A DNA stretch of 37,730 nt. Source: Arcobacteraceae bacterium (GTDB taxonomy: Bacteria; Campylobacterota; Campylobacteria; Campylobacterales; Arcobacteraceae). The notes beneath the pieces are model-generated. The model ran no database searches and was not told where the DNA came from. It saw only the letters and a list, made by a program, of their open reading frames with translations. Shown piece after piece: positions 1,955 to 35,460 of the stretch (position 1 is the first letter of the stretch; each line of letters starts with the position of its first letter). The stretch is taken from positions 1-37,730 of the forward strand of contig JBLWVX010000026.1 in assembly GCA_048268245.1 (NCBI GenBank), given 5' to 3'. The position numbers and the translations under genes were made by a program.

Positions 1955-1998
1955 TTTTATATTATGATGTCATTTTAAATACAAACTAGGATTTATAA

Positions 1999-12026: not shown

Positions 12027-12152
12027 ATGAAAAATATAAATGAAACAAATTTATATAAAAAAAATATTAAACTTCAAAATAATTTATCTAAAGTGTATAC
12101 TGTAGCATTAATATTAGGAATTATTATTGTAGTTTATAAAGGGTTTATCTAG
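12027..12152 (+). CDS. Unannotated 41-aa single-TM small protein
   Basis: MKNINETNLYKKNIKLQNNLSKVYTVALILGIIIVVYKGFI; RBS AAGG; TAG overlaps the GTG of the next gene (TAGTG). Confidence 0.65.
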   Translation: MKNINETNLYKKNIKLQNNLSKVYTVALILGIIIVVYKGFI

Positions 12153-12604
12153 TGAAAAGATATGAAATTAGTTTTGAGTCATTTTTATCGAATTTTAAAA
12201 AATCTGTTTCAAAATCAGGTTATAAAAACTCAATTCAAAAAGACTACATATTAAAGATACTTTATTTTAGTGATGACCATTTAAGTGCAGAACAAATTGT
12301 AAATATAGCAAAAAGTTTATATAAGATTGACTTAGGAATTGCAACTGTTTATAGAACAGTAAAGTTTTTTGAGTCTATGAATATAGTAAAATCTTTAGAC
12401 ATAGGAGATGGTACTAAAAGATATGAACTAAATATTTCAATTCACCATGATCATATGATATGTACAAATTGTGGTAAAATCATTGAGTTTACAGATGATT
12501 TAATAGAAGAACAACAAGAATTAGTTGCAAAAAAGCATAATTTTAGATTAAAAGATCATATTATGACAATATATGGAATATGTGAAGATTGCCAAAATAA
12601 ATAA
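12152..12604 (+). CDS. Fur family transcriptional regulator (divergent paralogue)
   Basis: HLSAE, GIATVYRT, HHDHMICTNCG, CEDC. Confidence 0.92.
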   Translation: MKRYEISFESFLSNFKKSVSKSGYKNSIQKDYILKILYFSDDHLSAEQIVNIAKSLYKIDLGIATVYRTVKFFESMNIVKSLDIGDGTKRYELNISIHHDHMICTNCGKIIEFTDDLIEEQQELVAKKHNFRLKDHIMTIYGICEDCQNK

Positions 12605-12965: not shown

Positions 12966-15092
12966 TTAGCCTACTACTATTTTTGTGATGTTATAAACAA
13001 TAAAAGATAAAAGCCATGCTGTTGTAGTTGTAAATACAAATAAATAAGCTAAATATTTCCATCCTCCTGCTTCTTTCGCAAAAACCATTGAAGCCGCTAA
13101 ACAAGGTAAATAAATCATTACAAAGACAATAAATGACATGGCTGATGCGAAAGGAATATTATCTTTGATTTTTTCAATTAAACCTTTTGAACTCTCGTCA
13201 TTATCTTCACCTAAACCATATAATATACCAAGAGTAGAAACTACAATTTCTTTTGCAGCAAGTCCTGTTTCTAAAGCAACAGTCATTCTCCAATCAAAGC
13301 CAAGTGGAGCAAATAAAGGCTCAGTAGCTTTACCTATGATTCCTAAATAAGAGTTTTCTAGTTTATACATAGCTAACTCATTTAATAATTCACCTTTTTT
13401 ATCTTCAGAATTTGTAAGTTCTATTTTACTATTATATTGCTCTTCAACTAAAGGGTATTTAGGATAGTTTGATGCAAACCAAATTAAAATAGAAGCAGCT
13501 AAAATATATGTACCTGCTTTTTTTAAGTACATCAAAGCTTGATTTGAAACTGTATGCCAGATTAGTTTAAAAGAAGGCATTCTATATTTTGGCATTTCCA
13601 TTACAAAAGGTTCATCTTCACTTTTAAATACAATTATTTTTAAAGCTTTAGCTGCTATTAATCCCAAAATTGCTCCAGCTATATATATTATAAATAAGAT
13701 GTTACCTGCATTTCCTTCATTGAAAAATGCACCTACAAAAAGTACATAAATTGGAAGTCTAGCCCCACAAGACATAAAACCTATAATAAATAATGTTAAA
13801 AGTCTATCTCTTTCATTTTTTAAAGTTCTAGCTGCCATATAAGCTGGAACAGAACAACCAAACCCTGTAACTAAAGGAATAAAAGATTTTCCATGAAGTC
13901 CAAATTTATGAAAAAATCCATCAAGTAAAAAAGCAACTCTACTCATATATCCTGTAGTTTCAAGCAAGGCTATACCAAAAAATAGTATTACGATATTTGG
14001 TAAAAAAAGAACTACTGCTCCAACTCCTGCAATAGCACCATCTGCAATTACTGAACTTAATTGATTATCTCCTAAAACTTCTTTTGTACCATCAATTAGC
14101 GAGGCAAAAAATGCATCAATCATATCCATAGGAATATTTCCTACTTCAAAAGTAAGTTGAAATAAACCCCACATCAAAAATAAAAAGATAGGTAAACCTA
14201 AAAATTTGTGAATTAGTAAAGAATCAATTTTTTCAGTTGTTGATTTTGCTATACTTTTTTCTTGTTTAACTGTTTCAGTTACAGCTCCTTTTGCAAAAGC
14301 AAATCTTTCATCACTAAAAATATCATCCATGTTTTTAGTATCATAATGAATAAATAAATGCTCAAAAGCATGAGCTAAAACAGGTTGAAGTTTAACCCAA
14401 ATTGGTTCATCATGAAAATACTTATAAGTTTGTTTATCTTCTTTTAAAAGTTTAATTGCAAGTTGTCTATATGTTTGAGAAGTTCTAAAAGCATTCTCTT
14501 CCATAATTTTTACTAAATTTGAAATCTCTTCTTCCATTACATCTGAAAAAGTAAGTTTTGTTGGAAGTTTTGCAGATTCATGTTTTTTTACAATATTGTC
14601 AAGAATTACTTTTATACCAAGTTTTTTAGCTGCACTTGTCTTTACGCATGGCTTACCTAATATTTTTCCTAATTGAACTTCATCAATTACAATGTTTTCT
14701 TTTGTTGCTTCATCTATCATATTTAAAGCAATAATCATTTTTTTATCAAGAGCAAGTAATTCCGAAGTTAAATATAGATTTCTTTCTAAGTTAGTTGAAT
14801 CTAATACATTTAAGATTATATCATAAGGTGAATTCTCTAAATACTCTTTTGTAACTTTTTCTTCTAAGGTATAGTCATTTAAAGAGTAAGCTCCTGGAAG
14901 GTCAGTAATCTCTATTTTGTAGTTTTTATATTTAAATACAACTTCTTCTTTTGCTACAGTTACTCCTGAAAAATTACCAACTTTAAGTCTTGCATTTGAA
15001 ATAGAGTTAATAAGCATAGATTTACCAACATTTGGCTGTCCTACTAATGCAACTTTAATTACTTTTTCTTCTTTAAAATTTTTTATTTGCAT
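12966..15092 (-). CDS. feoB: Ferrous iron transporter B
   Basis: GQPNVGKS, GNFSGVT, DLPG, NMID G-motifs; GFGCSVPA, MSCGARLP, YLPC membrane motifs. Confidence 0.97.
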   Translation of the reverse strand: MQIKNFKEEKVIKVALVGQPNVGKSMLINSISNARLKVGNFSGVTVAKEEVVFKYKNYKIEITDLPGAYSLNDYTLEEKVTKEYLENSPYDIILNVLDSTNLERNLYLTSELLALDKKMIIALNMIDEATKENIVIDEVQLGKILGKPCVKTSAAKKLGIKVILDNIVKKHESAKLPTKLTFSDVMEEEISNLVKIMEENAFRTSQTYRQLAIKLLKEDKQTYKYFHDEPIWVKLQPVLAHAFEHLFIHYDTKNMDDIFSDERFAFAKGAVTETVKQEKSIAKSTTEKIDSLLIHKFLGLPIFLFLMWGLFQLTFEVGNIPMDMIDAFFASLIDGTKEVLGDNQLSSVIADGAIAGVGAVVLFLPNIVILFFGIALLETTGYMSRVAFLLDGFFHKFGLHGKSFIPLVTGFGCSVPAYMAARTLKNERDRLLTLFIIGFMSCGARLPIYVLFVGAFFNEGNAGNILFIIYIAGAILGLIAAKALKIIVFKSEDEPFVMEMPKYRMPSFKLIWHTVSNQALMYLKKAGTYILAASILIWFASNYPKYPLVEEQYNSKIELTNSEDKKGELLNELAMYKLENSYLGIIGKATEPLFAPLGFDWRMTVALETGLAAKEIVVSTLGILYGLGEDNDESSKGLIEKIKDNIPFASAMSFIVFVMIYLPCLAASMVFAKEAGGWKYLAYLFVFTTTTAWLLSFIVYNITKIVVG

Positions 15093-15310
15093 TTTTCAAT
15101 CTTAATTTTTGCAGCTTCTGTGAATCGTAGAGCAACTCTTGTATTGTTTATTTTTATTTCAATAGTACTTTTTGTTAAAGTTACTTCTTCTACATATATT
15201 TTAGAACCTTTTACTATACCAAAAGAATAGAATCTATTTTTTAGTGTAGGTTCACAATTTATAGATTTTACTATAGCAGACTCATTGATATTTAATTTAT
15301 CGAGGGTCAT
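15083..15310 (-). CDS. feoA: Ferrous iron transport protein A
   Basis: 75 aa with RFYSFGIVKG and VALRFTEA; directly upstream of feoB. Confidence 0.92.
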   Translation of the reverse strand: MTLDKLNINESAIVKSINCEPTLKNRFYSFGIVKGSKIYVEEVTLTKSTIEIKINNTRVALRFTEAAKIKIEKCK

Positions 15311-15326
15311 TTTTATTCCTTGTCTT

Positions 15327-15456
15327 TAATAATGATTATTATAATACAATAAGCCTTACTTATAGTTTATAGATATTATATAAATATGATAAATAAAAGA
15401 AACAATTCTTCTTATATGCAATTGATAATTATTATTAAGTTCAATATTGCTATAAT
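15327..15456. promoter_or_regulatory. Divergent feoA / fez control region: two Fur boxes and an extended -10
   Basis: TAATAATGATTATTA (15327-15341), TGATAATTATTATTA (15423-15437), TGCTATAAT (15448-15456). Confidence 0.75.
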
Positions 15457-15537
15457 CTTTTTTGATAATGAGTCTAGATTTATATTAAGACATAGTTAAG
15501 CTTGATAATATAAAAATCGAAAAGTAAAGGAATTTTT

Positions 15538-15852
15538 TTGATAAGTACAGAAGATATTATAAAAATAGCAGATTATTTTAGCATTATTGCACATTCTCCT
15601 GGGAGACTAAGAGTAAGAGTTAATCCTAAAATAAAGAATGAAGGTGGAAATATCACTTTAGAGGATATTGAGAATTTACCAAAAAAAATAAATGGTATTA
15701 AAGAAATAAAGATTAAAAAAATTATTGCTTCGGTTACAATCACTTATGACCCAGCTATTTTTGAACCAAGACTTTGGGAAGATCTAATAGCTCACAAAAA
15801 TTTGGATGAAGTAACAAAACTAATTAACACCCTAGCAAAGGAGGTAGTGTAA
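15538..15852 (+). CDS. HMA-like (HMA2-type) domain protein of the fez-like cluster
   Basis: HSPGRLRVR Arg-rich motif and GIKEIK...ASVTITYDP; TTG start with RBS AAAGGA. Confidence 0.8.
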   Translation: MISTEDIIKIADYFSIIAHSPGRLRVRVNPKIKNEGGNITLEDIENLPKKINGIKEIKIKKIIASVTITYDPAIFEPRLWEDLIAHKNLDEVTKLINTLAKEVV

Positions 15853-16557
15853 ATGCAACAAAACAACGTGGACCAAAACTTGTTGGATGCTCAAAGAGTT
15901 GATCCTAATGACCCTCAACCTGTGTTATCTCAAGCTTTAAGAATTGCAGCTTATGATGAGTTTGAGGCTTATAATACTTATAGTAATGTAATTACAAAGT
16001 TTGGAAATGTATTGCCTTTTTCAAATATTATAAATTCTGAAATTAATCACTATAATGAAATGATAACATTGATGCAAAAATATGGTGTGGAAGCTCCAAT
16101 TGTTGAGCAAACACAAGTTGAGTTACCTAACACTTTACATGAGTGTTGTGAAATAGCAGTTGCTGCTGAGATTGATAATGTAGCTTTATATGATAATTTA
16201 CTTATGTATGTAAATGAACCTGATGTAAGAGATTTGTTTTATAGAGTTCAAGCAGCTTCATTTAACAATCACTTACCAGCTTTTAGAGCTTGTGTTGCTT
16301 CATTTTATAATCAAGCAAATCCACAAGTAAATAACCAAGTGCCTCAAATGCAACAAAATGGGGCAAATATGATGGATAACATGGCGCAATATCAAGAACT
16401 TCTTGATGATGCAATGAATGGAAATATAGATCAAAATAAAATCATGTCTATGTTATCAAATATGAATATGTCAATGATGAGTGGTCTTGCTGTAGGTGCC
16501 TTAGGTGGTATGGCACTTAGTAGTATGATAAATAAAGAAGATATTACAGAAGAGTAA
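15853..16557 (+). CDS. Ferritin-like domain protein with a C-terminal GxxxG hydrophobic tail
   Basis: DEFEAY, SEINH, AEIDN, SFNNH four-helix ligand pattern; Q/N/M-rich linker; GLAVGALGG. Confidence 0.8.
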   Translation: MQQNNVDQNLLDAQRVDPNDPQPVLSQALRIAAYDEFEAYNTYSNVITKFGNVLPFSNIINSEINHYNEMITLMQKYGVEAPIVEQTQVELPNTLHECCEIAVAAEIDNVALYDNLLMYVNEPDVRDLFYRVQAASFNNHLPAFRACVASFYNQANPQVNNQVPQMQQNGANMMDNMAQYQELLDDAMNGNIDQNKIMSMLSNMNMSMMSGLAVGALGGMALSSMINKEDITEE

Positions 16558-16568
16558 AGGAGTATATC

Positions 16569-16829
16569 ATGGCACTTCCATTTTTATTAGGTATAGCAGT
16601 TGGAGCAGGAGCAGTAGTTGCATATAATAATAGTAAAAAAATAAAAGAAAAAACAGATGAACTATTTGATAAATCAAAAGATATAGTTTGTGATGTAAAA
16701 GATAATGTAAAACAAAATGTTGAAGCGACAGTTGATTGCATAAAAGACAAAAAAGAAAAAAATAAAACTCAAAATGAGTCTAAAGAAGAATGTAAAGATA
16801 AAAAAGAAGAGGAAAAAAATGAAAAGTAA
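16569..16829 (+). CDS. Small GxxxG membrane-anchored protein (FezA/YtxH-like architecture)
   Basis: MALPFLLGIAVGAGAVV followed by a charged helical tail. Confidence 0.75.
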   Translation: MALPFLLGIAVGAGAVVAYNNSKKIKEKTDELFDKSKDIVCDVKDNVKQNVEATVDCIKDKKEKNKTQNESKEECKDKKEEEKNEK

Positions 16830-17184
16830 TTTTGAAGAACCAAAGATAATGACACACCATTTAGTAAGTGGTGCAGCTGTATCTTTATTAGCAGCGGGAA
16901 CAATTAATGCTATGAGAATTAAAAAAGGTGAAACAAATATTAAAAAAGCTACGTATGATGTTGTAAAAAGAACAACTCAAGGTACAATAGCAACAGCTTC
17001 TGTTGTAGCTGCAAGTTCATATAAAAATGAAAAAAATGGTATGTTTAAAGCTTTAGCTTCTTTAGCAGTTGGTGCAGCTGGAGTTTATGCTGTAGAAATG
17101 ATTGACAAAAAGTTTAATAGTGATGAACAAGTAGAAGCAGTTTCTTGTGCTAAAGAAAATAATGAGGTAGTAGAGTATGAATAA
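16819..17184 (+). CDS. Small Gly/Ala-rich membrane protein of the fez-like cluster
   Basis: Start at 16819 (RBS GAGG); hydrophobic segments SGAAVSLLAAG and LAVGAAGV. Confidence 0.75.
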   Translation: MKSNFEEPKIMTHHLVSGAAVSLLAAGTINAMRIKKGETNIKKATYDVVKRTTQGTIATASVVAASSYKNEKNGMFKALASLAVGAAGVYAVEMIDKKFNSDEQVEAVSCAKENNEVVEYE

Positions 17185-17632
17185 TATGAATCAACAAGGA
17201 CAAAATCAAGGGCAAAATATTGCAGGTGTTCAAGATCAAGTTCAAGTAAATCAACAACAAAATATGGGGAATAATCAAATGGTACAAAGTGCTTTTTTAT
17301 CAAATCCTTATATCAATCAAAATCAAAATATGAATAATACTCAACAAGTAAATCCATATATAAATCAAGAAGTGAATACTTCTGTACAAACTCCTATGAA
17401 TGCTCAAAATATAATGCCTCAAAATAATGCTAATGATTCATTTTTTAATGGTGATTTTGTAAAGGGTGCACTAATTGGTGCTGGTGTAACTTTTCTTTTA
17501 ACAAATAAAACTACACAAAAAGCTATTTTTAATGGTTTTTCAAAAGGTAGTGAATTGGTTCAAGCAGGAATTGAAGAGTTAAAAGAAAGAATGGAAGACG
17601 CAAAAGCTCAAATGGAAGCTAAAAACTACTAA
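17177..17632 (+). CDS. N/Q-rich protein with GxxxG segment and C-terminal coiled coil
   Basis: About 85-aa N/Q-rich N-terminus, FVKGALIGAGVTFLL, EELKERMEDAKA. Confidence 0.78.
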   Translation: MNNMNQQGQNQGQNIAGVQDQVQVNQQQNMGNNQMVQSAFLSNPYINQNQNMNNTQQVNPYINQEVNTSVQTPMNAQNIMPQNNANDSFFNGDFVKGALIGAGVTFLLTNKTTQKAIFNGFSKGSELVQAGIEELKERMEDAKAQMEAKNY

Positions 17633-17640
17633 GGTTAATT

Positions 17641-19755
17641 ATGAGTATTAATAGTTTTAAAAAAGTTCATAGTACATCTTTTAGAGCAAGATATAAATTT
17701 GAACTTTTAAGTGATGAGTATATTGATGAAAATATACTTAAAAACTATCTTGAAAAAGTAGAACACGTAACTTCTGTTCGAATAAATAAAAAAGCAAAAA
17801 GTATTATTTTTACTTTTGATGAAGACGTTTGCAATGCTATTGAAGATAGATTAGCTAATGTAGATGCAGATAAATTATTAAGTTCTTTGGATGAAGAAGC
17901 TTCTGTTTGTGTATCTTGTATTAGTGAAGAAGAACCTAGTTTAAAACCTTTGATGTATGCTTCAGGTGCATTAGTTAGTGAAAGATTAATTAAAAATAAT
18001 CTAATAAATGCAACTATTTCAAGTGCTGCTGCAACACCACTTTTAATTGAGGGAACACAAGAACTTTTTAAAGAAGGTCTTACTTCAAGAGTTTTAGAAA
18101 GTGCAGCAGTTGGTATCTCTTTAATTAGAAAAGATTATCTTGCAGCGAATTCTACGAATACAATGTTAGCTCTTGGTGAATATATTGAAGAAACAACAGT
18201 TCATAGAAGTGATGATTTATTAAAAGAACTTGCTAAGCCAAATGTTAAAGAAGCATGGATTGAAAAAGAAGTTGATGGTAAACTAGTTGAAAAGTTAGTT
18301 GATACAGATACTATTGAAGTTGGGGATATAGTTATTGTTTCAGCTGGAAGTACTGTACCTGTTGATGGACATATTGTAAATGGTAGTGCAAGTGTAAATC
18401 AAGTTTCTATGACTGGGGAAGCTGAACCTGTAAAAAAACAAAGAGGTGATAGAGTTATATCAGGAACTGTTTTAGAAGAGGGTAGGCTTAAGATTTGGGC
18501 TGAACAAGTTGGAGCTAATACAGCGACACAAAGAATAAAGCATTATATTGAGAACTCTTTAAATGAAAAATCTTCTGTTCAATTAAAAGCAACTAAATTA
18601 GCTGATAAACTAGTACCTGTTACATTAGGACTTGCGGGAGTTTCTTATGTAATGAGTAAAGATTTTGAAAGAGTAGCTTCTGTTTTACAAGCTGATTATT
18701 CTTGTGCTTTAAAACTAGCAACACCTGTTGCTTTTAAATCTACAATTTCAAAAGCTGGTCATGAAGGCATTATGATAAAAGGTGCTAAATCTATTGAAGC
18801 TTTAAATAGTGCAGATACTTTTATTTTTGATAAAACAGGAACTTTAACTCAAGGTGATTTAGAAGTTGTAGATGTGCAATCTTTCAATGATAAATGGACA
18901 GAAGAAGAAGTTTTAAATCTATCTGCAAGTACAGAAGAGCACTACTTTCACCCAGTAGCAGAGGCTGTTGTTAAAGCTGCTAAAAAAAGAGGTTTTGTTC
19001 ACATGCACCATGAAGAAGTTGAGTTTATTGTAGCTCATGGTGTAAAAACAGAAGTAAATGGTAAAACTGTTGTTATTGGAAGTAGACACTTCTTAGAAGA
19101 TGATGAAGGAATAGATTTTTCTGAACATCAAGATAAAATTGATGAAAAACTTGATGAAGGTAAAACATTACTTTATATTGGTTATAACAATGAGCTTTTA
19201 GGAACAATATCTTTAGTTGATCAAATAAGACATAATACAAAAGATTCTTTAGAAAAACTAAGAGAGTTTGGTGTAAAAAAACTTGTAATGTTAACAGGTG
19301 ATGTTGATAAAAAAGCTCAAAGTGTTGCTAAAGAGTTAGGTATTGATGAGGTTTATTCAGAATTACTACCAACTGACAAAGCTACAATCGTTAAAAAGAT
19401 GATGGATGAGGGTAATAAAGTAGCTTTTGTAGGTGATGGTATTAATGATGCACCTGCATTAATTTCAGCTCATGTGGGTATTTCAATGAGTAAAGGTGCT
19501 GATATTGCTAAAGCAACAGCTGATGTTAGTTTGTTAAAAGATGATATTGCTGCTGTTGTTGAAGCAAAAGAGTTAGCGTACAAAACAATGAAATTAATCA
19601 ACACAAATTTCAATGCAACGGTTGGTATTAATTCAGCCATTTTAGCAGGTGCTACTTTTGGAGCATTTTCTCCTATTGTAACAGCCTTTTTACATAATGG
19701 AACGACAATTGGACTACTTTTAAATTCAATAAGAGGTGTTAAGTTAGATAAATAG
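17641..19755 (+). CDS. fezB: P1B-6-type heavy-metal P-type ATPase (FezB-like)
   Basis: TGE, DKTGT, HP and GDGIND P-type motifs; membrane motifs DYSCA and HNGTT (HNxxT); N-terminal RARY motif. Confidence 0.85.
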   Translation: MSINSFKKVHSTSFRARYKFELLSDEYIDENILKNYLEKVEHVTSVRINKKAKSIIFTFDEDVCNAIEDRLANVDADKLLSSLDEEASVCVSCISEEEPSLKPLMYASGALVSERLIKNNLINATISSAAATPLLIEGTQELFKEGLTSRVLESAAVGISLIRKDYLAANSTNTMLALGEYIEETTVHRSDDLLKELAKPNVKEAWIEKEVDGKLVEKLVDTDTIEVGDIVIVSAGSTVPVDGHIVNGSASVNQVSMTGEAEPVKKQRGDRVISGTVLEEGRLKIWAEQVGANTATQRIKHYIENSLNEKSSVQLKATKLADKLVPVTLGLAGVSYVMSKDFERVASVLQADYSCALKLATPVAFKSTISKAGHEGIMIKGAKSIEALNSADTFIFDKTGTLTQGDLEVVDVQSFNDKWTEEEVLNLSASTEEHYFHPVAEAVVKAAKKRGFVHMHHEEVEFIVAHGVKTEVNGKTVVIGSRHFLEDDEGIDFSEHQDKIDEKLDEGKTLLYIGYNNELLGTISLVDQIRHNTKDSLEKLREFGVKKLVMLTGDVDKKAQSVAKELGIDEVYSELLPTDKATIVKKMMDEGNKVAFVGDGINDAPALISAHVGISMSKGADIAKATADVSLLKDDIAAVVEAKELAYKTMKLINTNFNATVGINSAILAGATFGAFSPIVTAFLHNGTTIGLLLNSIRGVKLDK

Positions 19756-19764
19756 TTTTAATCA

Positions 19765-19825
19765 TGATAATAATTATCAGTTTATTTTAAATTTAAATAA
19801 GTTACAATTATGATAATTATTATTA
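19765..19825. promoter_or_regulatory. Two Fur boxes downstream of fezB
   Basis: Perfect 7-1-7 palindrome TGATAATAATTATCA (19765-19779) and TGATAATTATTATTA (19811-19825). Confidence 0.82.
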
Positions 19826-19837
19826 AAAGGACTAACG

Positions 19838-19960
19838 ATGCCATTTATCTTGCCTTTAGCTGCTGTATTAACAGCAGCTTTAACTTATGAGACTTTAAAA
19901 GGAACAAAGAAAACTATTGATAGAAGAGCTAGAAGGAAAAAAAGGAATGAAAAAGCTTGA
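19838..19960 (+). CDS. Unannotated 40-aa protein with hydrophobic N-terminus and basic tail
   Basis: MPFILPLAAVLTAALTYETLKGTKKTIDRRARRKKRNEKA; RBS AAAGGA; overlaps the next start. Confidence 0.65.
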   Translation: MPFILPLAAVLTAALTYETLKGTKKTIDRRARRKKRNEKA

Positions 19961-20198
19961 TTTAGAGGTTAAAAAAGAAGTTGCAAAAATAGGAATGACC
20001 GCAACATTAGGTGCGACAGTTGTAACTTCAATGTTTATGAAAAATAAACTAGCAAAAAAAACGCATGTTGTTGCTGGTGCAGCATTTTGTGGCTTTGCTT
20101 TATGGCATCATATGCTTTATCAACCTGAAAATAAAAAAAAGAAAAAACTTATAAAAAAAGAATCAAAAGAAGAAGTTATATTAAATGATAATATTTAG
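19947..20198 (+). CDS. Small two-TM His-containing membrane protein
   Basis: KIGMTATLGATVVTSM and THVVAGAAFCGFALWHH; start taken at the ATG at 19947. Confidence 0.75.
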   Translation: MKKLDLEVKKEVAKIGMTATLGATVVTSMFMKNKLAKKTHVVAGAAFCGFALWHHMLYQPENKKKKKLIKKESKEEVILNDNI

Positions 20199-20263
20199 TG
20201 TTTGTATTTTAGGCAAACTTTGGCTATACTATTAAGCATTATAAAGTTTAAGGGCAAATTTTT

Positions 20264-20707
20264 ATGGTAGAGAACGAAGAGATAATAGAAGAACTTAAAA
20301 AGATTGTTAAACAAAAAGGCTTAAAATATACAGAACAAAGAGAAATAGTTTTAAGTATTTTAATTAATGCTGAAGACCATTTAACAGCTGAAGAAGTTTA
20401 CAATGAAATTAAAAAACAATACCCAGATACAAACATTGGAATCGCTACAGTTTATAGAGCATTAAGCTTCTTAGAAGAAGTAGATTTAATTGTATCTATT
20501 AATTTTGGTACTGATGGAAAAAAATATGAGAGTAACGCAAAATCTCATCATGACCATCTTATTTGTACTTCATGTGGTAAAATAGTAGAGTTTTTAGACG
20601 ATGAAATAGAGAAAAGACAAGACAGAATTGCTAAAAAGAATAAATTTAAAATTACAAGTCACTCTATGCAACTTTACGGAACTTGCGAAGATTGTACTCA
20701 AAACTAA
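20264..20707 (+). CDS. fur: Ferric uptake regulator
   Basis: GLKYTEQRE, IGIATVYRAL, FGTDGKKYE, HHDHLICTSCG, HSMQLYGTCEDC; closely resembles Campylobacter Fur. Confidence 0.9.
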   Translation: MVENEEIIEELKKIVKQKGLKYTEQREIVLSILINAEDHLTAEEVYNEIKKQYPDTNIGIATVYRALSFLEEVDLIVSINFGTDGKKYESNAKSHHDHLICTSCGKIVEFLDDEIEKRQDRIAKKNKFKITSHSMQLYGTCEDCTQN

Positions 20708-20728
20708 AAGTTTAAACTTTTAGTTTTG
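20699..20728. terminator. Bidirectional terminator between convergent fur and fldA
   Basis: Perfect 30-nt palindrome CAAAACTAAAAGTTTAAACTTTTAGTTTTG. Confidence 0.75.
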
Positions 20729-20732
20729 TTTT

Positions 20733-21227
20733 TTATATAATATCACTTTTGATATCTTCAATCCAGGCTTTAATTCTATCGTCTGTTAAATCATCTTGAT
20801 TATCTTCATCAATAACTAATCCAACAAATTTTCCATCAATTTCTGCTTTTGATTCATCATAATCATAACCATCCGTAGATGTAAAACCTACAATATTAGC
20901 ACCTTTTGAATTCACTTGTTCATGAATAGTTCCTAAAGCGTCTACAAAAGTATCCCCATAACCTTCTTGGTCTCCTAGTGAAAATAAAGCTACATTTTTT
21001 CCAGAAAAATCAAGTTCACAAAATTCATCCCACACTTCATCTAAATCATCGTTTAGATCACCATCTCCCCAAGTAGAAGCACCAATAATTACTTTATCAT
21101 ACTGTTCAACTTTATCAAGGTTTGCACTTAAATCAAAAACTTCAATTCCTCCTAACTCTTCTGCAATTTTACTTGCAACTTCTGTTGTATTCCCTGTACT
21201 AGTTGTATAAAATATAGCTGTCGCCAT
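20733..21227 (-). CDS. fldA: Long-chain flavodoxin
   Basis: TSTGNT, GASTWGDG, FSLGDQEGY, FVGLVIDEDNQ. Confidence 0.95.
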   Translation of the reverse strand: MATAIFYTTSTGNTTEVASKIAEELGGIEVFDLSANLDKVEQYDKVIIGASTWGDGDLNDDLDEVWDEFCELDFSGKNVALFSLGDQEGYGDTFVDALGTIHEQVNSKGANIVGFTSTDGYDYDESKAEIDGKFVGLVIDEDNQDDLTDDRIKAWIEDIKSDII

Positions 21228-21244
21228 TTGTAAATCTCCTGTTT

Positions 21245-22012
21245 TTATCTTATAATTGATCTAAAAGAGTACGGTATTGCTTTGATTTGGTACTCTTTGT
21301 TTTTTAATTCATCCACATATATAGGTATTTGTTTTTTAAATTCATCATCTTTTGGATACGCTAAATATATTTGATTGAAATCTCCTTTTTTTATTGACTC
21401 AATAGCACTTTCTAGTTCATCTTTAATATTTGGGTTTTTAACTTCAATATTTTTCCAAGATGTGTAGATTTTAAGTTTACATACATCTTTTGCTTCAATA
21501 CAAATCGAGTCACCTAAATCTATTACATTTTTATCTTTATGAAGTTTTTTTATCTTATTTAAAACGAATTCATGAAATAGTAAATGTTTATCAATAAGTA
21601 ACTGCATATTATTATTTATAAAACAATGAGAAATTAGCTTTGCAGCAGGAATTAAATTTTTACTTGTTACGAATGTTGAGTTATTAGTTTTGTTTAAATA
21701 GTTGTTTATAATCTTAGTTGAATTAATACAAAGTTTAAAACTCTTAGAAATTTTGTGTGTTTTTATATTTGAAGTTGGAAGCATTGAATTTATTTTAAAC
21801 TCAAAAGCATTTTTAAGAGAATAAATACTTAATCTTCTTTGCTCATATTTTGTAAAATGGCAGTATGATTTTAAAACATAATTGCTAAGATTTAAAAATA
21901 ATTGTCTTAATCTGTATTGAGAATTAAAGCTGTCAAAGCCTTTTGGTAAAAACTCTTTGTTATTATCAAAACCAACAAAATCATCACAGTAGTTAAAATA
22001 GTTAAAACTCAT
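21245..22012 (-). CDS. Conserved hypothetical protein between DUF2325 and fldA
   Basis: Start taken at the ATG at 22012 (RBS AAGGA). The gene order recalls the iron-repressed cj1384c-cj1383c-fldA unit of C. jejuni (from memory). Confidence 0.7.
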   Translation of the reverse strand: MSFNYFNYCDDFVGFDNNKEFLPKGFDSFNSQYRLRQLFLNLSNYVLKSYCHFTKYEQRRLSIYSLKNAFEFKINSMLPTSNIKTHKISKSFKLCINSTKIINNYLNKTNNSTFVTSKNLIPAAKLISHCFINNNMQLLIDKHLLFHEFVLNKIKKLHKDKNVIDLGDSICIEAKDVCKLKIYTSWKNIEVKNPNIKDELESAIESIKKGDFNQIYLAYPKDDEFKKQIPIYVDELKNKEYQIKAIPYSFRSIIR

Positions 22013-22013
22013 A

Positions 22014-22346
22014 TTAATCCTTCTTCTTAGTACAGTTTGCATAACACTGACTACAATCTGTAATTCCCATAATCTTTACATATTCATCATATACACAAGA
22101 AACTGATCTTTTTGCACATATAAATGGAATGTTTTTTCTTTTTGCTTCATTTTTATATTTAAGCATTGTATTATGGTTTAAAAAAGAAGTTAGCATAACT
22201 ATACAATCCGTATCCATAGGAACTTTTTTCTTAGGAGCAGAAGATTTTTTTCTTGCATCCCAGTGATTGATAGTTTTTGCACCAAGGTTTTCCAACATAT
22301 TTACAATAGGAGATATTTTATCTCCTCCAATAACTAATACACTCAT
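22014..22346 (-). CDS. DUF2325 domain protein
   Basis: SVLVIGGD, DCIVMLTSFLNHN, AKRKNIPFICAKRS; Cys-rich C-terminus. Confidence 0.85.
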   Translation of the reverse strand: MSVLVIGGDKISPIVNMLENLGAKTINHWDARKKSSAPKKKVPMDTDCIVMLTSFLNHNTMLKYKNEAKRKNIPFICAKRSVSCVYDEYVKIMGITDCSQCYANCTKKKD

Positions 22347-22356
22347 TTTACTTCCT

Positions 22357-22422
22357 TTAGCAAGTACAACCAGTTGGCTCTACTAAATCTTTTTTATTTT
22401 TTATTTCGTAACAAGTAATCAT
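22357..22422 (-). CDS. Candidate 21-aa Cys-rich leader peptide MITCYEIKNKKDLVEPTGCTC
   Basis: RBS AAAGGA 6 nt upstream of the ATG; the stop codon overlaps the DUF2325 RBS (TAAAGGAAG). Confidence 0.5.
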   Translation of the reverse strand: MITCYEIKNKKDLVEPTGCTC

Positions 22423-22439
22423 TATAAATCCTTTCATAT

Positions 22440-22507
22440 TGATAATCATTATTAGTATATTACAAGAACAAAACTTAAATTTATATTAATATTGAGAATA
22501 GTTATCA
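22440..22507. promoter_or_regulatory. Two Fur boxes upstream of the DUF2325-fldA operon
   Basis: TGATAATCATTATTA (22440-22454) and TGAGAATAGTTATCA (22493-22507). Confidence 0.78.
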
Positions 22508-22582: not shown

Positions 22583-23671
22583 TTAAAATGAGTAAGCTAA
22601 GTTTACAGCTACTTTTGATTTGTCCTTATCCGACTCTAAAGATAAGTCTGTATACATAATATCTGCAGCTAAGTTTTCAGTAAATGAATAAGCAGCGCCA
22701 AGAGTAAATTCTTTATCTTCTTTATTTGTACTGTCATTATCAGCAACGGCATATAGTGCAGATAGTTCTACCTCAGAGATAGTATATCCAGCTGTAGCAT
22801 AAATAGTGCTAGTATCAGTAGCATAAATATAATCACCTAACTCTTCAGTTGGATCAATATTATCACCAAATGCAGCAATTGAACCTAGCCCATTGTCCTT
22901 TCCAGCTTTAATATAGCCAGCTGCTAAACTAAATCCAGATACATTAGCACTTGCTTCAAAATGTAAAACTTCACCATCTTCTGTATTTGCTGCATCTTCT
23001 GAACTTTGTGCATAATGAGCAGTTAAACCAAATGTATCAGTTTCATAAGTTGTTTTTAAACCATAGAAGTTTGCTACATCTTGTGCTGAATAAAAATAAG
23101 GGTTTAATACAATATTTTCAATTCCATTATATTTTGCATCTATAACATAGGCACCATCTTTTGTAACATCAGCAAAATTTTTGCTTTCATCTGCACCAAT
23201 CGCAGCTTGTCTAGTTGTATATCCTGCAACTAAAGTTGTATTTGGAATTAGTTTTGATGAAGAGATAACAACTGCTTCATTGTAATCACCCAACCACTCT
23301 AAATCGATCTCTTGTCTACCAGCTTTAATAGTAAGAAAATCATTTGAGAATTCAATATTTGCAGTATGTATAACAGCATTGTTTTCAAAATCACCTTCGT
23401 AATCACCTGGTTCTTTTTCAGAGAATTCATGATTTGCTCTAAATCCAGTGTTTAATTTAAAACCATTTAATGAATCAGTTTCATAGTTTAAGTTAAAAGT
23501 TCCTGCTGTAAAACCAGAGTCTTTTTCACCAGCTCCATTATCCCATGATTGATGATGAGCTGTAAGCTCTCCAGAAAAGCTTCCATCTTTAAAAGCCTCA
23601 TCAACACTATTTGCAGCATAAGCAGTAGATGTTAATACTAATGCACTTGCAATAATACTTAATTTTTTCAT
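22583..23671 (-). CDS. Outer membrane porin (Opr/OprD-like, Campylobacterota type)
   Basis: Signal peptide, SVDEAFKDG, KAGRQEI, alternating beta-strand pattern, C-terminal YSF. Confidence 0.85.
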   Translation of the reverse strand: MKKLSIIASALVLTSTAYAANSVDEAFKDGSFSGELTAHHQSWDNGAGEKDSGFTAGTFNLNYETDSLNGFKLNTGFRANHEFSEKEPGDYEGDFENNAVIHTANIEFSNDFLTIKAGRQEIDLEWLGDYNEAVVISSSKLIPNTTLVAGYTTRQAAIGADESKNFADVTKDGAYVIDAKYNGIENIVLNPYFYSAQDVANFYGLKTTYETDTFGLTAHYAQSSEDAANTEDGEVLHFEASANVSGFSLAAGYIKAGKDNGLGSIAAFGDNIDPTEELGDYIYATDTSTIYATAGYTISEVELSALYAVADNDSTNKEDKEFTLGAAYSFTENLAADIMYTDLSLESDKDKSKVAVNLAYSF

Positions 23672-23765
23672 TTATTATGTCCTTTTGTTTTGAATTTTTT
23701 AGTAGAAATAAATTCAATTTAGTGGTGGAATATTAGTGAATAGAAAATTAATTTATACTTAATTA

Positions 23766-23780
23766 TGATTATGGTTATCA
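23766..23780. promoter_or_regulatory. Fur-box-like site upstream of the porin
   Basis: TGATTATGGTTATCA, two mismatches to the 7-1-7 consensus. Confidence 0.5.
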
Positions 23781-28722: not shown

Positions 28723-29136
28723 TTAATATGTTATTTCAATTATTGGTAGTTTTGAATTGCACTTATAATATCCAATTTTTCTATCTTTATAGTTATTGTA
28801 AAAAATAGCATATTGTTCATATCTTAAAGCAATATTTATTGCTTCTTGAAGCTTTAAATCATATATTAAATACCCATCTTCACTATGGTCATCTAAATAT
28901 CCTCTTGCATAAAGATATTGAACTTCTAACTTTTCTATATCTTTTCTTAGAAGTATATGTCTATCTTGATTTTCTATACAAGATAGAATTTCATTTTGAG
29001 GATTAAATGCTGTAATAATTGTAAAATCTCTTTTAAATAATGAGTTTCTTTTATATTTGTCAAAATCTTTTAGATTAAAAATAAAACTATCATCTATCTC
29101 ATAATAGTTTTGGAAATAAATGTCTTTGTAATCCAT
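28723..29136 (-). CDS. DUF3293-like protein
   Basis: IITAFNP...N motif and EQYAIF. Confidence 0.7.
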   Translation of the reverse strand: MDYKDIYFQNYYEIDDSFIFNLKDFDKYKRNSLFKRDFTIITAFNPQNEILSCIENQDRHILLRKDIEKLEVQYLYARGYLDDHSEDGYLIYDLKLQEAINIALRYEQYAIFYNNYKDRKIGYYKCNSKLPIIEITY

Positions 29137-29147
29137 ATGTAAAGTAT

Positions 29148-29480
29148 CTATTCTTTAGTAGTTTCTATATCTACAAGTTCTACACCAATACAATCTTTTT
29201 TGTTTAGTTTTCTAGCATTTGCATCTTCTTCTGCTAGACTAACTAAATCTGCAAAGTCATCTTTTCTAGCTTCAAACTGATAAAGCTCTTTTTGTGTTTC
29301 TATCTTTAGTTTACAATCATCATTCTTTGTATTTAAAGCTATATTTCTAATACCTTTAGCAAACTCACTTTTAATAACCTTTGCAACTTTTTCATTTGCA
29401 AGTAACTGCTCTAGTGTAACTTCCAAGTTGAAATCAGACTTGCATAATATCTTGTAAGTAACCAAAATCTTACCTTCCAT
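29148..29480 (-). CDS. Hypothetical protein
   Basis: 110-aa ORF with RBS AAAGG. Confidence 0.75.
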   Translation of the reverse strand: MEGKILVTYKILCKSDFNLEVTLEQLLANEKVAKVIKSEFAKGIRNIALNTKNDDCKLKIETQKELYQFEARKDDFADLVSLAEEDANARKLNKKDCIGVELVDIETTKE

Positions 29481-29543
29481 AAAATAAACCTTTATTTTTG
29501 TTTTTTATATTTTAACGAAATCTTTTTGATTGTTTAAATTTTA

Positions 29544-30173
29544 TTACAATTTGTTATGTTTTGACTTTATATTATTAATATGTCTGATGTTTGTTTTGAT
29601 ACCTTTTTTCAAGCTATACTTTTTAACTTCATTCATATACTTTACAACATCTTTTCTTGATAGTATAGGTTTATTAAAACTTTGAATATATGGAACTAAA
29701 TTAGTTACAGTACAAACATTACTTGGAAGTTTGGTTTTAAATTTACTATCTCCTGTAAAAACAACTATGTTTTTAAATATATCATTATTTGTAGAAGTGT
29801 TTAAAGTTTGCTCTAAAGATTTTATATGCTTATAATTTTGATGTAGAGGGTTTTGAAATTTATATTTCTTTTTATATATACTTTGAGTCCAAGTTTTTTG
29901 GTTTGCGTTTCCAAAAATCCAACCTTTATAGTTTTTTACTTCTATAACAAAAATTCCATATACAGAAAATACAATAAGGTCAATTTGTGTTGTATCACCT
30001 TTTTTTTCTAGACTTATATCTTGCATTATAAAGTATTCTTCTTTGTTCAACAAGTTATCTAAAATTGAGTATACATTTTTTTCTCCAATGATTCCTTTTA
30101 TTATTGGTGTTTTAAGTACCAATCCAATAATAACAATAATTATAAATAGAATAATAAGTTCAGTTGCTATCAT
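29544..30173 (-). CDS. NERD (nuclease-related domain) protein with N-terminal TM
   Basis: KGIIGE, TTQIDL, GIFVIEVKNYKGWIFG, FQNPLHQN; start taken at the ATG at 30173 (RBS AAAGG). Confidence 0.9.
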   Translation of the reverse strand: MIATELIILFIIIVIIGLVLKTPIIKGIIGEKNVYSILDNLLNKEEYFIMQDISLEKKGDTTQIDLIVFSVYGIFVIEVKNYKGWIFGNANQKTWTQSIYKKKYKFQNPLHQNYKHIKSLEQTLNTSTNNDIFKNIVVFTGDSKFKTKLPSNVCTVTNLVPYIQSFNKPILSRKDVVKYMNEVKKYSLKKGIKTNIRHINNIKSKHNKL

Positions 30174-30255
30174 ATTTAACCTTTTAATAAAAGTCATTAT
30201 TATATTATCATAAAGTTTTAAATAAATAGTTATATATAATCAAAAAGGATTACAT

Positions 30256-31143: not shown

Positions 31144-31274
31144 TAGGTTAGTAGAAAGATTGTATTAATAGTATTAAAATATTAGCAAAAATTCAAGTAC
31201 TAATTAAAAACATTTCAACTTCCAATAGATTTTAGATAAAATCTAAACTATATAAATTTGAGGATATTTTATCA

Positions 31275-32051: not shown

Positions 32052-32088
32052 GAATAAAAGTTGATTTAATATACTTGTGATTTATAAT

Positions 32089-32118
32089 AAAACTATAGAA
32101 TTAATATTCTATGGTTTT
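32089..32118. terminator. Hairpin terminator between the NYN gene and the att site
   Basis: AAAACTATAGAA-TTAATA-TTCTATGGTTTT. Confidence 0.6.
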
Positions 32119-32130
32119 TATGAATTATTT

Positions 32131-32150
32131 TGGTGGAGATGTCCGGAATC
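32131..32150 (-). other. Displaced 3' end of tmRNA (ssrA) or tRNA-Ala-like gene; att site of an integrated element
   Basis: Minus strand GATTCCGGACATCTCCACCA = part of the T-loop, T-stem, acceptor strand with U70 and ACCA; the adjacent sequence does not continue the gene. Confidence 0.8.
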
Positions 32151-35459: not shown

Positions 35460-35460
35460 A

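What the first reader, a model, noticed from the sequence alone, without database searches (positions are those of the whole stretch)
15538..20198. Ferrosome-like (fez) iron-storage organelle gene cluster in an Arcobacter-like Campylobacterota genome
Seen: a tightly packed operon of an HMA-like protein (HxxPGRLRVR), a ferritin-like protein with a GxxxG tail, three small Gly-rich membrane proteins and a P-type ATPase carrying DYSCA and HNGTT instead of CPC. Two more small membrane ORFs follow, Fur boxes flank the unit, and it is divergent from feoAB. Established: P1B-6 ATPases with DYSCA/HNxxT (FezB) plus GxxxG partners build membrane-bound iron-phosphate ferrosomes in Desulfovibrio magneticus, Shewanella putrefaciens, Rhodopseudomonas palustris and Clostridioides difficile. 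Inference: this organism makes ferrosomes using an expanded eight-gene set. I know of no experimental description in this phylum, and routine annotation would call it a heavy-metal ATPase plus hypotheticals.
Basis: partly seen in the sequence, partly recalled or inferred. Interest (0 to 1): 0.9.

Follow-up and report, generated by a model that had tools for sequence, protein, structure and literature searches.

The report
Ferrosome (fez) gene cluster in Arcobacter
This is an intact copy of the known "fez" gene cluster that builds membrane-bound iron-storage granules (ferrosomes) in a few other bacteria; it is common in this bacterial phylum and already catalogued there, but nobody has yet shown that these bacteria make the granules.

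Summary
Window 15538-20198 carries eight co-oriented genes, divergent from feoAB.

- **Pump:** the ATPase has both FezB (P1B-6) signatures, DYSCA at 352-356 and HNGTT at 685-689. It also has an N-terminal RxR, six predicted membrane helices, and a tree position inside the DYSCA clade.
- **Partners:** these match the published fez description. [quoted passage not shown] There is also a two-helix protein with weak DUF4405 likeness.
- **Further details:** the fourth gene belongs to the MamC (magnetosome protein) family. A conserved pair of Fur boxes lies inside the cluster, in front of the last two genes.
- **Distribution:** a FezB orthologue is in 124 of 301 sampled genomes of the phylum.
- **Novelty:** Grant and Komeili's 2020 preprint already lists SMUL_2748 among FezB homologues with conserved clusters. 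I recall that tag as Sulfurospirillum multivorans, same phylum. This scan also judged a Campylobacter-like copy as known (e1-2983831).

Verdict: a new member of a known kind. Whether granules form is untested.

The parts
12152..12604 (+). fur1, a Fur-family regulator with Fur-box-like sites at 11947, 12003 and 12609
   Evidence: Pfam FUR E 1.8e-35. NCBIfam best hit is the Helicobacter-type Fur model, 130 bits, below its cut-off of 200. Sites.
12966..15310 (-). feoA (15083-15310) and feoB (12966-15092), ferrous iron importer, divergent from the fez genes
   Evidence: Pfam FeoA E 5.5e-17; FeoB_N E 3.7e-56; Gate; FeoB_C.
15327..15437 (.). Two Fur-box-like sites (15327-15341 with 2 mismatches, 15423-15437 with 1 mismatch) in the shared feoA/o1 promoter region
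   Evidence: In relatives, 37 of 75 unique loci have at least one such site within 300 nt upstream of o1. The background is 0.30 sites per kb.
15538..15852 (+). o1: soluble 104-aa HMA_2-like protein with the R-rich motif GRLRVR (G22, R23, R25 invariant) and no cysteine. It corresponds to the 'R-rich', chaperone-like class (FezD-like).
   Evidence: Pfam HMA_2 E 1.2e-6, 29 bits, just under the cut-off of 30. Alignment of 17 orthologues. No hydrophobic segment. Weak likeness to copper-ATPase HMA domains.
15853..16557 (+). o2: ferritin-fold DUF2202 protein, followed by a Q/N-rich linker and a C-terminal hydrophobic helix with invariant G211xxxG215
   Evidence: Pfam DUF2202 26.8 bits, over the cut-off of 22. 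The AlphaFold2 model has a four-helix bundle at 24-155 with pLDDT above 90. Foldseek best matches are MJ0754, Dps-like proteins and bacterioferritins, TM 0.67-0.76 on the target. Invariant columns.
16569..16829 (+). o3: 86-aa protein with an N-terminal helix carrying invariant G8xxxG12 and a Lys/Glu-rich tail; YtxH-like
   Evidence: Weak YtxH hits in 3 of 10 orthologues. Profile-profile match to o5, probability 69%, E 4.4e-5.
16819..17184 (+). o4: 121-aa protein with two Gly/Ala-rich hydrophobic helices (an ORF from 16774 is also open); MamC-family member
   Evidence: 117 of the 120 listed homologues carry precomputed PF26373, and one is named 'magnetosome protein MamC' by NCBI. The Atlas names PF26373 as MamC. 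NCBIfam MamC NF038051 hits 7 of 9 orthologues at E 3e-9 to 1.5e-3, all below its cut-off. The window's own copy does not hit.
17177..17632 (+). o5: 151-aa protein with a Q/N-rich variable N-terminus, a helix with invariant G97xxxG101, and a conserved amphipathic C-terminal helix; YtxH-like. It is the partner found in the most loci.
   Evidence: Weak YtxH hits in 5 of 12 orthologues. The nearest Atlas clusters are 'YtxH domain-containing protein'. Found in 96 of 98 loci.
17641..19755 (+). fezB: P1B-6-type P-type ATPase, 704 aa. Motifs are R15-A-R17, DYSCA 352-356, DKTGT 397-401, GDGIND 598-603 and HNGTT 685-689.
19765..19825 (.). Pair of Fur boxes (19765-19779 exact TGATAATAATTATCA; 19811-19825 with 1 mismatch), 46 nt apart, 10 nt after the fezB stop and in front of o7
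   Evidence: Of 46 unique loci with o7 and o8 directly after fezB, 45 have at least one site and 36 have two, spaced 45-46 nt in 34 of 36. Of 32 loci without o7/o8 there, 2 have a site.
19838..19960 (+). o7: 40-aa protein with one hydrophobic helix and a basic tail
   Evidence: Found in 57 of 98 loci.
19947..20198 (+). o8: 83-aa two-helix hairpin protein (a TTG ORF from 19917 is also open). In 83-aa numbering, H40 and H54 are invariant and the conserved core reads AGxAFCGFALWHH. It is DUF4405-like, the class said to resemble the membrane part of FezC.
   Evidence: Alignment. DUF4405 is the top but sub-threshold Pfam hit in 8 of 9 orthologues, E 4e-4 to 0.06. 578 homologues were found, with no Pfam on the 120 listed, and every protein name shown is 'hypothetical' or similarly uninformative.
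20264..20707 (+). fur2: second Fur-family regulator, followed by a terminator-like hairpin at 20699-20728. It may be co-transcribed with o7 and o8.
   Evidence: Pfam FUR E 9.5e-43. Hairpin. Co-transcription is an inference.

Best explanation
The stretch is a complete Campylobacterota-type fez (ferrosome) gene cluster under Fur control. It sits in an iron-response island: fur1, feoAB, fez, fur2, then flavodoxin.

Likely mechanism:
1. When Fur releases its boxes at low iron, the cell makes FezB together with its small partners.
2. FezB sits in the membrane of a small cytoplasmic vesicle. It uses ATP to pump Fe(II) out of the cytoplasm into the vesicle lumen, where iron is stored with phosphate.
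3. The GxxxG/YtxH-like proteins o3 and o5, the MamC-family protein o4 and the small proteins o7 and o8 are the vesicle's membrane components. They would shape, stabilise or mark it.
4. The ferritin-fold protein o2 is tethered to that membrane by its C-terminal helix.
5. The cysteine-free R-rich HMA_2 protein o1 is a soluble partner of the similar N-terminal domain of FezB.

What is shown here: the gene content, the family memberships, the conservation and the Fur-box sites. What is inferred from other species: the location of the proteins, the metal pumped and the existence of granules in this organism.
For: **Pump**
- It has D-Y-S-C-A and H-N-G-T-T at the positions that define P1B-6/FezB in the preprint.
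- Of the 150 nearest representatives in 1.84 billion proteins, 96 carry both motifs.
- In a 144-row tree it lies inside a 105-row clade with support 98. In that clade 94 rows have D[YF]SC[AGS]. The genome's three CPC-type P1B paralogues lie outside it.
- The AlphaFold2 model (pLDDT 91.2) has six long membrane helices plus one short N-terminal helix, not eight.

**Partners**
- A DUF4405-like protein is also present, but only on sub-threshold hits.

**Conservation**
- o1-o6 keep their order in most of the 18 loci from relatives.
- Across 98 loci the counts are o5 96, fezB 96, o4 90, o2 89, o3 88, o1 87, o8 75 and o7 57. 88 of the 98 loci are unique by FezB sequence.

**Iron link**
- feoAB is divergent and a Fur gene lies on each side.
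- There are 10 Fur-box-like sites against 1.63 expected.
- The double box before o7 is kept in 45 of 46 loci that have o7 and o8.
- In C. difficile, fezA and fezB are reported as Fur-repressed (PMC12574912, passages).

**Function in other species**
- fez genes are necessary for ferrosomes in D. magneticus, S. putrefaciens and R. palustris, and the S. putrefaciens genes are sufficient in E. coli (preprint main text).
Against: - No experimentally verified FezB sequence could be put in the tree. The library carries no names, and the look-up of names was not available. Membership therefore rests on motifs, topology and clade composition.
- None of the characterised clusters (fezABC; the six-gene fezB, C, D, E, F, G operon) is described as holding a DUF2202 protein. 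Here the FezC-like parts are two separate genes. So sufficiency of this particular gene set is untested.
- Ferrosomes were seen only under anaerobic growth in S. putrefaciens and R. palustris. I did not establish the oxygen lifestyle of this organism.
- The HMA_2 hits of o1 and of the FezB N-terminus are just below Pfam's cut-off (29 and 25.8 against 30).
- The genome also has an ordinary ferritin-family gene, so this cluster is not its only possible iron store.
- The Fur-box consensus I searched with is recalled from other bacteria, not determined for this organism.
Confidence: 0.75

Rival explanations
1. The ATPase works in the cytoplasmic membrane as an Fe(II) or other metal exporter, like PfeT-type pumps. 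The small proteins are accessory or regulatory subunits, and no organelle is formed.
For: All solved relatives are plasma-membrane exporters. CopA 3j08 scores E 7e-78, the P1B-4 pump 7qbz 6e-73 and ZntA 4umv 1.5e-56. NCBIfam places the protein only in the general heavy-metal models TIGR01525 and TIGR01512. No granule has been reported for this phylum in the papers searched.
Against: The metal-site motifs are those of the FezB group, not of any exporter group. An exporter would be expected to be induced by excess iron, whereas Fur boxes predict expression at low iron, together with the importer feoAB. Seven conserved membrane or membrane-tethered partners, among them a ferritin-fold protein and a MamC-family protein, are not a feature of known exporters.
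Confidence: 0.13
2. The cluster builds or serves a compartment for a metal other than iron, for example manganese, cobalt or zinc.
For: The sister clade in the tree (13 rows with a DxxTG-type site) and other neighbours have different metal sites, so specificity varies in this part of the family. The metal carried by FezB has not been measured directly in the text I read.
Against: The DYSCA/HNxxT site is the one found in the iron-granule systems. The neighbours are feoAB, two Fur genes and a flavodoxin, and all control sites found are Fur-type.
Confidence: 0.07
3. The cluster is a silent or decaying remnant with no present function.
For: No expression data could be obtained here.
Against: All eight frames are open. 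The proteins are conserved at 30-100% identity across many genera with invariant motif residues. Only 1 of the 20 FezB-type matches in the 41 nearest genomes held a stop codon.
Confidence: 0.03

Closest known systems
Six-gene fez operons of Shewanella putrefaciens CN-32 and Rhodopseudomonas palustris CGA009 (FezB, FezC, FezD, FezE, FezF, FezG); Grant and Komeili, bioRxiv 10.1101/2020.01.10.902569, main text read
   Same: A P1B-6 pump with DYSCA/HNxxT and an R-rich N-terminus. Two GxxxG proteins (FezE and FezG there, o3 and o5 here). A soluble chaperone-like R-rich protein (FezD there, o1 here). A small two-helix protein (FezF there, possibly o8 here). Linked to iron homeostasis.
   Different: Here there is also a DUF2202 ferritin-fold protein, a MamC-family protein and a 40-aa protein. 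No single FezC (HMA plus two helices) is present. Its two parts appear as separate genes, o1 and o8, at opposite ends. I could not compare sequences directly because no named copy of those operons was obtainable.
fezABC of Desulfovibrio magneticus RS-1 (DMR_28320-28340)
   Same: FezB with the same motif set, and a GxxxG protein (FezA). These proteins were found on isolated ferrosomes and are needed for them. Expression follows iron starvation.
   Different: It has three genes against eight, FezC is fused, and no ferritin-fold protein is described.
Catalogued but untested fez cluster of SMUL_2748 (recalled as Sulfurospirillum multivorans, Campylobacterota), named in the preprint's Extended Data Fig. 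5a legend
   Same: Same phylum. An orthologue of o4 is recorded from Sulfurospirillum arsenophilum (P0252). FezB orthologues at 48-66% identity with the same gene order occur in other families of the order.
   Different: I could not see that cluster's gene map. Figures are not held and the preprint's supplementary tables are closed, so the layout match is inferred from unnamed relatives.
Clostridioides difficile ferrosome genes fezA and fezB (Pi et al. 2023, known to me only through PMC12574912 and PMC13463818, passages)
   Same: Fur-repressed and induced by iron limitation, with a FezB pump plus a small membrane protein.
   Different: A minimal gene set in a Gram-positive bacterium.
MamC (Mms13) of magnetosomes; NCBIfam NF038051, Pfam PF26373
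   Same: o4 orthologues match nearly the whole MamC model (positions 7-92 of 97). They share the layout of two helices with a loop, in a membrane around an iron mineral.
   Different: Scores of 19-37 bits are far below the equivalog cut-off of 100, and the window's own copy does not hit. No other magnetosome gene is in the cluster.
P1B-4 Fe(II)/Co(II) exporters such as PfeT, and the solved pump 7qbz
   Same: A P1B core with a reduced number of membrane helices and a link to iron.
   Different: The metal site differs (recalled as SPC and HEGxT there; DYSCA and HNGTT here). Those pumps are induced by metal excess and have no partner-gene set.

Membership tests
FezB / P1B-6 P-type ATPase | D[Y/F]SCA motif in the fourth membrane helix in place of CPC | tested here: met
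   DYSCA at 352-356. D352, S354 and C355 are invariant in a 62-row alignment. All 16 relatives checked have it.
FezB / P1B-6 P-type ATPase | HNxxT motif in the last membrane helix | tested here: met
   HNGTT at 685-689. H685, N686 and T689 are invariant.
FezB / P1B-6 P-type ATPase | N-terminal R-rich motif (RxR or RxRxR) and no CxxC metal-binding domain | tested here: met
   R15-A-R17, both at least 90% conserved. The N-terminal domain at 6-72 is HMA_2-like at 25.8 bits, under the cut-off of 30.
FezB / P1B-6 P-type ATPase | Six membrane helices rather than the eight of classical P1B pumps | tested here: met
   AlphaFold2 model, pLDDT 91.2. Helices are 120-145 and 149-197 before the actuator domain, then 295-339, 342-374, 637-672 and 678-698, plus one short helix at 102-116. 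This is a prediction, not a measurement.
FezB / P1B-6 P-type ATPase | Groups with FezB homologues in a P1B phylogeny | tested here: inconclusive
   It lies inside a 105-row clade (support 98) with 94 DYSC-type rows, apart from CPC and DxxTG rows. No experimentally verified FezB sequence was available to include.
FezB / P1B-6 P-type ATPase | Sits on ferrosomes and is required for them | not testable with these tools
   Needs microscopy and genetics.
fez gene cluster | One or more neighbours with a hydrophobic region carrying a conserved GxxxG | tested here: met
   o3 G8/G12, o5 G97/G101 and o2 G211/G215 are all invariant.
fez gene cluster | A neighbour with an N-terminal R-rich motif | tested here: met
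   o1 has GRLRVR, with G22, R23 and R25 invariant and R27 at least 90% conserved.
fez gene cluster | [quoted passage not shown] | tested here: met
   Pfam 26.8 bits, over the cut-off of 22. Ferritin-like fold. GxxxG tail.
fez gene cluster | DUF4405-type protein like the membrane part of FezC | tested here: inconclusive
   DUF4405 is the top hit for o8 in 8 of 9 orthologues, but all are below the cut-off (14-21 bits against 26.7).
fez gene cluster | Neighbourhood of iron-homeostasis genes (Feo, Fur) | tested here: met
   A Fur-family gene lies within the locus in 69 of 98 loci.
fez gene cluster | Fe/P-rich membrane-bound granules depend on it | not testable with these tools
   Needs TEM/EDX of wild type against a deletion.
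MamC family (NF038051 / PF26373), for o4 | Match to the family model over its length | tested here: inconclusive
   7 of 9 orthologues hit NF038051 at E 3e-9 to 1.5e-3 over about 85 of 97 positions, all below the cut-off of 100 bits. The window's own o4 has no hit at E up to 1. 117 of 120 listed homologues carry precomputed PF26373. PF26373 is not in the Pfam copy I could run.
Classical HMA metallochaperone (CxxC), for o1 | Metal-binding CxxC loop | tested here: not met
   o1 has no cysteine at all. The GRLRVR motif occupies the N-terminal loop region.
Cage-forming ferritin or bacterioferritin, for o2 | Full di-iron site (E, ExxH, E, ExxH) in a four-helix bundle | tested here: inconclusive
   The fold matches. 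E36 and E106 are invariant. E63xxH66 is present in most orthologues but not in the Campylobacter-type ones. The fourth helix keeps only a His in most.

The most novel reading that the evidence does not exclude
The Campylobacterota-type cluster may be a distinct ferrosome variant rather than a plain copy. Three features set it apart:
- It joins the FezB pump to a MamC-family protein, two YtxH-like proteins (the family of gas-vesicle accessory proteins GvpP and GvpT) and a membrane-tethered ferritin-fold protein.
- It splits FezC into a soluble part and a membrane part.
- It puts the last two membrane proteins (with fur2) behind their own, much better conserved, double Fur box.

That would mean two-stage control of organelle building. 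It would also mean a shared membrane-protein toolkit between ferrosomes and magnetosomes, which would bear on how iron-mineral organelles arose.
Probability: 0.3. Interest if true: 0.6.

Novelty: new member of a known kind. Interest (0 to 1): 0.3.

Why it matters
By the texts I read, ferrosomes have been shown in only four species, none in this phylum.

- **Reach:** a FezB orthologue is in 124 of 301 sampled Campylobacterota genomes and in 20 of 58 genera. Named isolates with it include Arcobacter cryaerophilus, Malaciobacter halophilus and Poseidonibacter lekithochrous, and there are many Campylobacter genomes. If the cluster works as in the model species, membrane-bound iron storage is a common trait of a phylum with gut-associated and marine sulfur-cycle bacteria.
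- **Test system:** the cluster is compact at 4.7 kb and has culturable hosts. It could be used to test what the DUF2202 and MamC-like proteins add to ferrosome formation.
- **Annotation:** the partners are named 'hypothetical' in nearly all records seen. The pump fits only general heavy-metal models.

Tried and rejected
- **Binding of o1 to FezB:** a predicted complex of o1 with FezB residues 1-100 gave no answer. This is evidence neither for nor against binding.
- **Expression:** no RNA holder was listed for the stretch, and I laid no reads.
- **Fused forms of o1:** a search among longer proteins (FezC-like fusions) found none at E up to 0.001. The tool itself calls this weak evidence.
- **Names for the FezB representatives:** the look-up could not be made because the database was switched off.
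- **Literature not held:** the Nature 2022 ferrosome paper is not held, and the preprint's supplementary tables are closed. I could confirm only SMUL_2748. The ferrosome part of the Chem Rev review lies beyond the held text.
- **PF26373:** it is not in the Pfam copy available to me.
- **o4 and o5 as paralogues:** rejected, profile-profile probability 2.5%.
- **Programmed frameshift joining o7 and o8:** I considered this because of an A7 run in their overlap. Such runs occur in most relatives (7 or 8 A in 31 of 46). They encode the Lys-rich tail of o7, and both genes are called separately in public records, so ordinary overlapping genes is the simpler reading.
- **RNA families and repeats:** no Rfam family is in the window, and there is no notable repeat in 15000-20800.
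- **Promoter scan:** the sigma-70 scan was no better than shuffles, 55 against 54.9.


Full report
**What is there**

Window 15538-20198 holds eight co-oriented ORFs with short spacers or overlaps. Public gene calls use the shorter starts for o4 (121 aa from 16819) and o8 (83 aa from 19947). On the other strand, feoA and feoB run away from o1 across a 227-nt spacer. A Fur-family gene lies on each side: fur1 at 12152-12604 and fur2 at 20264-20707.

**The pump**

- Pfam finds the E1-E2 ATPase and HAD hydrolase domains. It also finds a sub-threshold HMA_2 domain at residues 9-64.
- NCBIfam puts the protein over the cut-off only for the general heavy-metal models TIGR01525 and TIGR01512. It is below the cut-offs of the copper and zinc models. 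This is what routine annotation would print.
- The fourth membrane helix reads DYSCA (352-356) and the last reads HNGTT (685-689). The N-terminus has R15-A-R17.
- The ferrosome preprint defines the P1B-6/FezB group by D[Y/F]SCA and HNxxT, and notes the R-rich N-terminus.
- In a 62-row alignment of the nearest DYSC-type representatives (chosen by that motif), D352, S354, C355, H685, N686 and T689 are invariant.
- An exhaustive search of 1.84 billion representatives returned 150 best hits. Of these, 96 carry both motifs.

I built a FastTree tree of 144 rows with SH-like support only:
- 132 of the 150 representatives were used, and 18 were dropped for length.
- I added the window protein, 6 of the 16 relatives' FezB, two second pumps from relatives, and this genome's three CPC-type P1B paralogues as outgroup.
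- The window protein sits deep in a 105-row clade with support 98. In that clade 94 rows have D[YF]SC[AGS] and the rest have near variants.
- Its sister is a 13-row DxxTG clade, and all CPC rows lie outside.

The AlphaFold2 model (pLDDT 91.2) shows six long membrane helices and one short N-terminal helix, where classical P1B pumps have eight. It also shows a small beta-alpha N-terminal domain. No structure of this group is solved. The best PDB match is CopA at E 7e-78.

One weakness remains.

**The partners**

- **o1** is a soluble, cysteine-free protein of 104 aa. It has a sub-threshold HMA_2 hit (29 bits against 30) and the motif GRLRVR. G22, R23 and R25 are invariant in 17 orthologues.
- **o2** passes Pfam's DUF2202 cut-off.
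  - Its model is a four-helix bundle whose best structural matches are MJ0754, Dps-like proteins and bacterioferritins.
  - After a Q/N-rich linker it ends in a hydrophobic helix with invariant G211xxxG215.
- **o3 and o5** each have a helix with an invariant GxxxG, followed by a charged or amphipathic helix.
  - They match each other weakly (probability 69%, E 4.4e-5).
  - They get weak YtxH hits in 3 of 10 and 5 of 12 orthologues.
  - The Atlas puts o5 next to 'YtxH domain-containing' clusters.
- **o4** has two Gly/Ala-rich helices.
  - The Atlas places it in clusters that carry Pfam PF26373, which it names MamC.
  - 117 of the 120 listed homologues carry that family, and one is named 'magnetosome protein MamC' by NCBI.
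  - NCBIfam's MamC model hits 7 of 9 orthologues at E 3e-9 to 1.5e-3 over most of its length. All are below its cut-off, and the window's own copy does not hit.
  - The preprint does not mention MamC. Four papers hold both 'ferrosome' and 'MamC'. I read passages in two, and neither links them.
- **o7** is a 40-aa single-helix protein with a basic tail.
- **o8** is a two-helix hairpin with invariant His residues and a conserved AFCGFALWHH core.
  - DUF4405 is its top but sub-threshold hit in 8 of 9 orthologues.
  - The preprint describes a DUF4405 protein resembling the membrane part of FezC.
  - So o1 plus o8 may stand for a split FezC. This is my inference.

**Conservation and spread**

- In the 41 nearest genomes, a FezB-type match (46-100% identity, E at most 4e-169) is present in 20. 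All other P1B matches are at most 35% identical.
- In 18 loci fetched from those genomes, o1-o6 keep their order wherever the contig is long enough.
- A scan of one genome per species found 552 confirmed stretches with the FezB-specific peptide patterns.
  - The best 80 are titled Arcobacter, Poseidonibacter, Halarcobacter, Malaciobacter, Aliarcobacter, Campylobacter and Sulfurimonas.
  - The 100% match is titled Arcobacter sp. YIC-310.
- Over all 98 loci (88 unique by FezB sequence), the counts are o5 96, fezB 96, o4 90, o2 89, o3 88, o1 87, o8 75 and o7 57. A Fur-family gene is present in 69.
- In an even sample of the phylum, 124 of 301 genomes and 20 of 58 genera have a FezB orthologue at E at most 1e-150.

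**Control**

- The 7-1-7 Fur-box pattern with up to two mismatches occurs 10 times in the window against 1.63 expected, always between genes. The 19-mer consensus with up to three mismatches occurs 3 times against 0.06. Both consensus patterns are recalled from other bacteria.
- Two sites lie in the feoA-o1 spacer. Two better ones, 46 nt apart, begin 10 nt after the fezB stop and end 13 nt before o7.
- This inner pair is the most conserved non-coding feature.
  - Of 46 unique loci with o7 and o8 directly after fezB, 45 have at least one site and 36 have two.
  - Of 32 loci without o7/o8 there, 2 have a site.
- Upstream of o1, 37 of 75 loci have a site.
- No terminator-like hairpin follows fezB or o8, and one overlaps the end of fur2. 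So o7-o8-fur2 may be a second Fur-controlled unit. This is an inference.

**How it most likely works**

In D. magneticus, FezA, FezB and FezC are enriched on isolated ferrosomes. Deletion of fezBC in D. magneticus, or of the whole fez cluster in S. putrefaciens and R. palustris, abolishes the granules. The S. putrefaciens operon makes granules in E. coli.

By homology, I read this cluster as follows:
- A Fur-derepressed set of genes puts FezB into a small internal vesicle.
- FezB loads the vesicle with Fe(II).
- The GxxxG, MamC-like and hairpin proteins are the vesicle's membrane components.
- The ferritin-fold protein is tethered to that membrane.

The metal, the location and the granules themselves are not shown for this organism. 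The genome also has one ordinary ferritin-family gene.

**Novelty**

- The preprint surveyed 304 FezB homologues. Its Extended Data Fig. 5a legend names SMUL_2748 among those with conserved clusters. I recall the prefix as Sulfurospirillum multivorans, a member of this phylum.
- An o4 orthologue from Sulfurospirillum arsenophilum supports the presence of this cluster type in that genus.
I could not see the tables it relies on.
- No held paper joins 'ferrosome' with 'arcobacter'.

So this is a sound identification of a new member of a known kind. Three details may be new in print: the MamC-family partner, the split FezC-like parts and the conserved inner double Fur box.

Noticed in passing
window 20733-22507: On the - strand, a flavodoxin gene (20733-21227), a 265-aa ORF with no Pfam hit and a DUF2325 gene (22014-22346) run together, with two Fur-box-like sites upstream (22440, 22493). 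Hits to them occur in 27, 27 and 22 of the 98 fez loci. This looks like an iron-sparing operon that travels with fez in several genera.
   Followed up: partly
window 22583-23780: A 362-aa ORF on the - strand has a signal-peptide-like start and a C-terminal Phe but no Pfam hit at E 1e-5. A Fur-box-like site lies upstream (23766). It is possibly an iron-regulated outer-membrane channel.
   Followed up: no
window 12152-12604 and 20264-20707: Two Fur-family paralogues, about 43-45% identical by cross-hits in relatives, bracket feoAB and fez. Both score best on the Helicobacter-type Fur model, and both are under its cut-off. Which is Fur and which might be PerR-like is open.
   Followed up: partly
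L020:5706-7802 and L022:3821-5956: In two relatives a second P1B ATPase lies directly upstream of o1, after a fur gene. It has an SCPC site and an N-terminal RxR and is about 29% identical to FezB. It fits the preprint's FezH class, and this window has none.
   Followed up: partly
window 19917-19960: o7 and o8 overlap in different frames across an A7 run. Runs of 7-8 A occur at this place in 31 of 46 relatives. I read it as the Lys-rich tail of o7, but slippage was not tested.
   Followed up: partly
L049, L075, L080, L089: Four contigs with 81-88% identity to the FezB stretch are titled as Paceibacteria, Gammaproteobacteria or Desulfurellales MAGs. The likely cause is mis-binned Campylobacterota contigs, though transfer was not excluded.
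   Followed up: no
P0160, P0183: Two o4 homologues come from Anaeramoeba transcriptome sets. They are probably reads from an associated bacterium.
   Followed up: no
window 28723-37636: This stretch holds NERD, NYN/OST-HTH, Fic, DUF5906 and several ORFs with no family. G+C drops to 0.20 at 33-34 kb. It is possibly a mobile or defence island.
   Followed up: no
window 1547-2748: A BLUF blue-light sensor gene lies next to a gene that fuses a ferredoxin-thioredoxin-reductase catalytic domain to a rhodanese domain.
   Followed up: no
window 16860-17080: The DNA for the two hydrophobic helices of o4 is similar (20 nt at 85%), which hints at an internal duplication.
   Followed up: no
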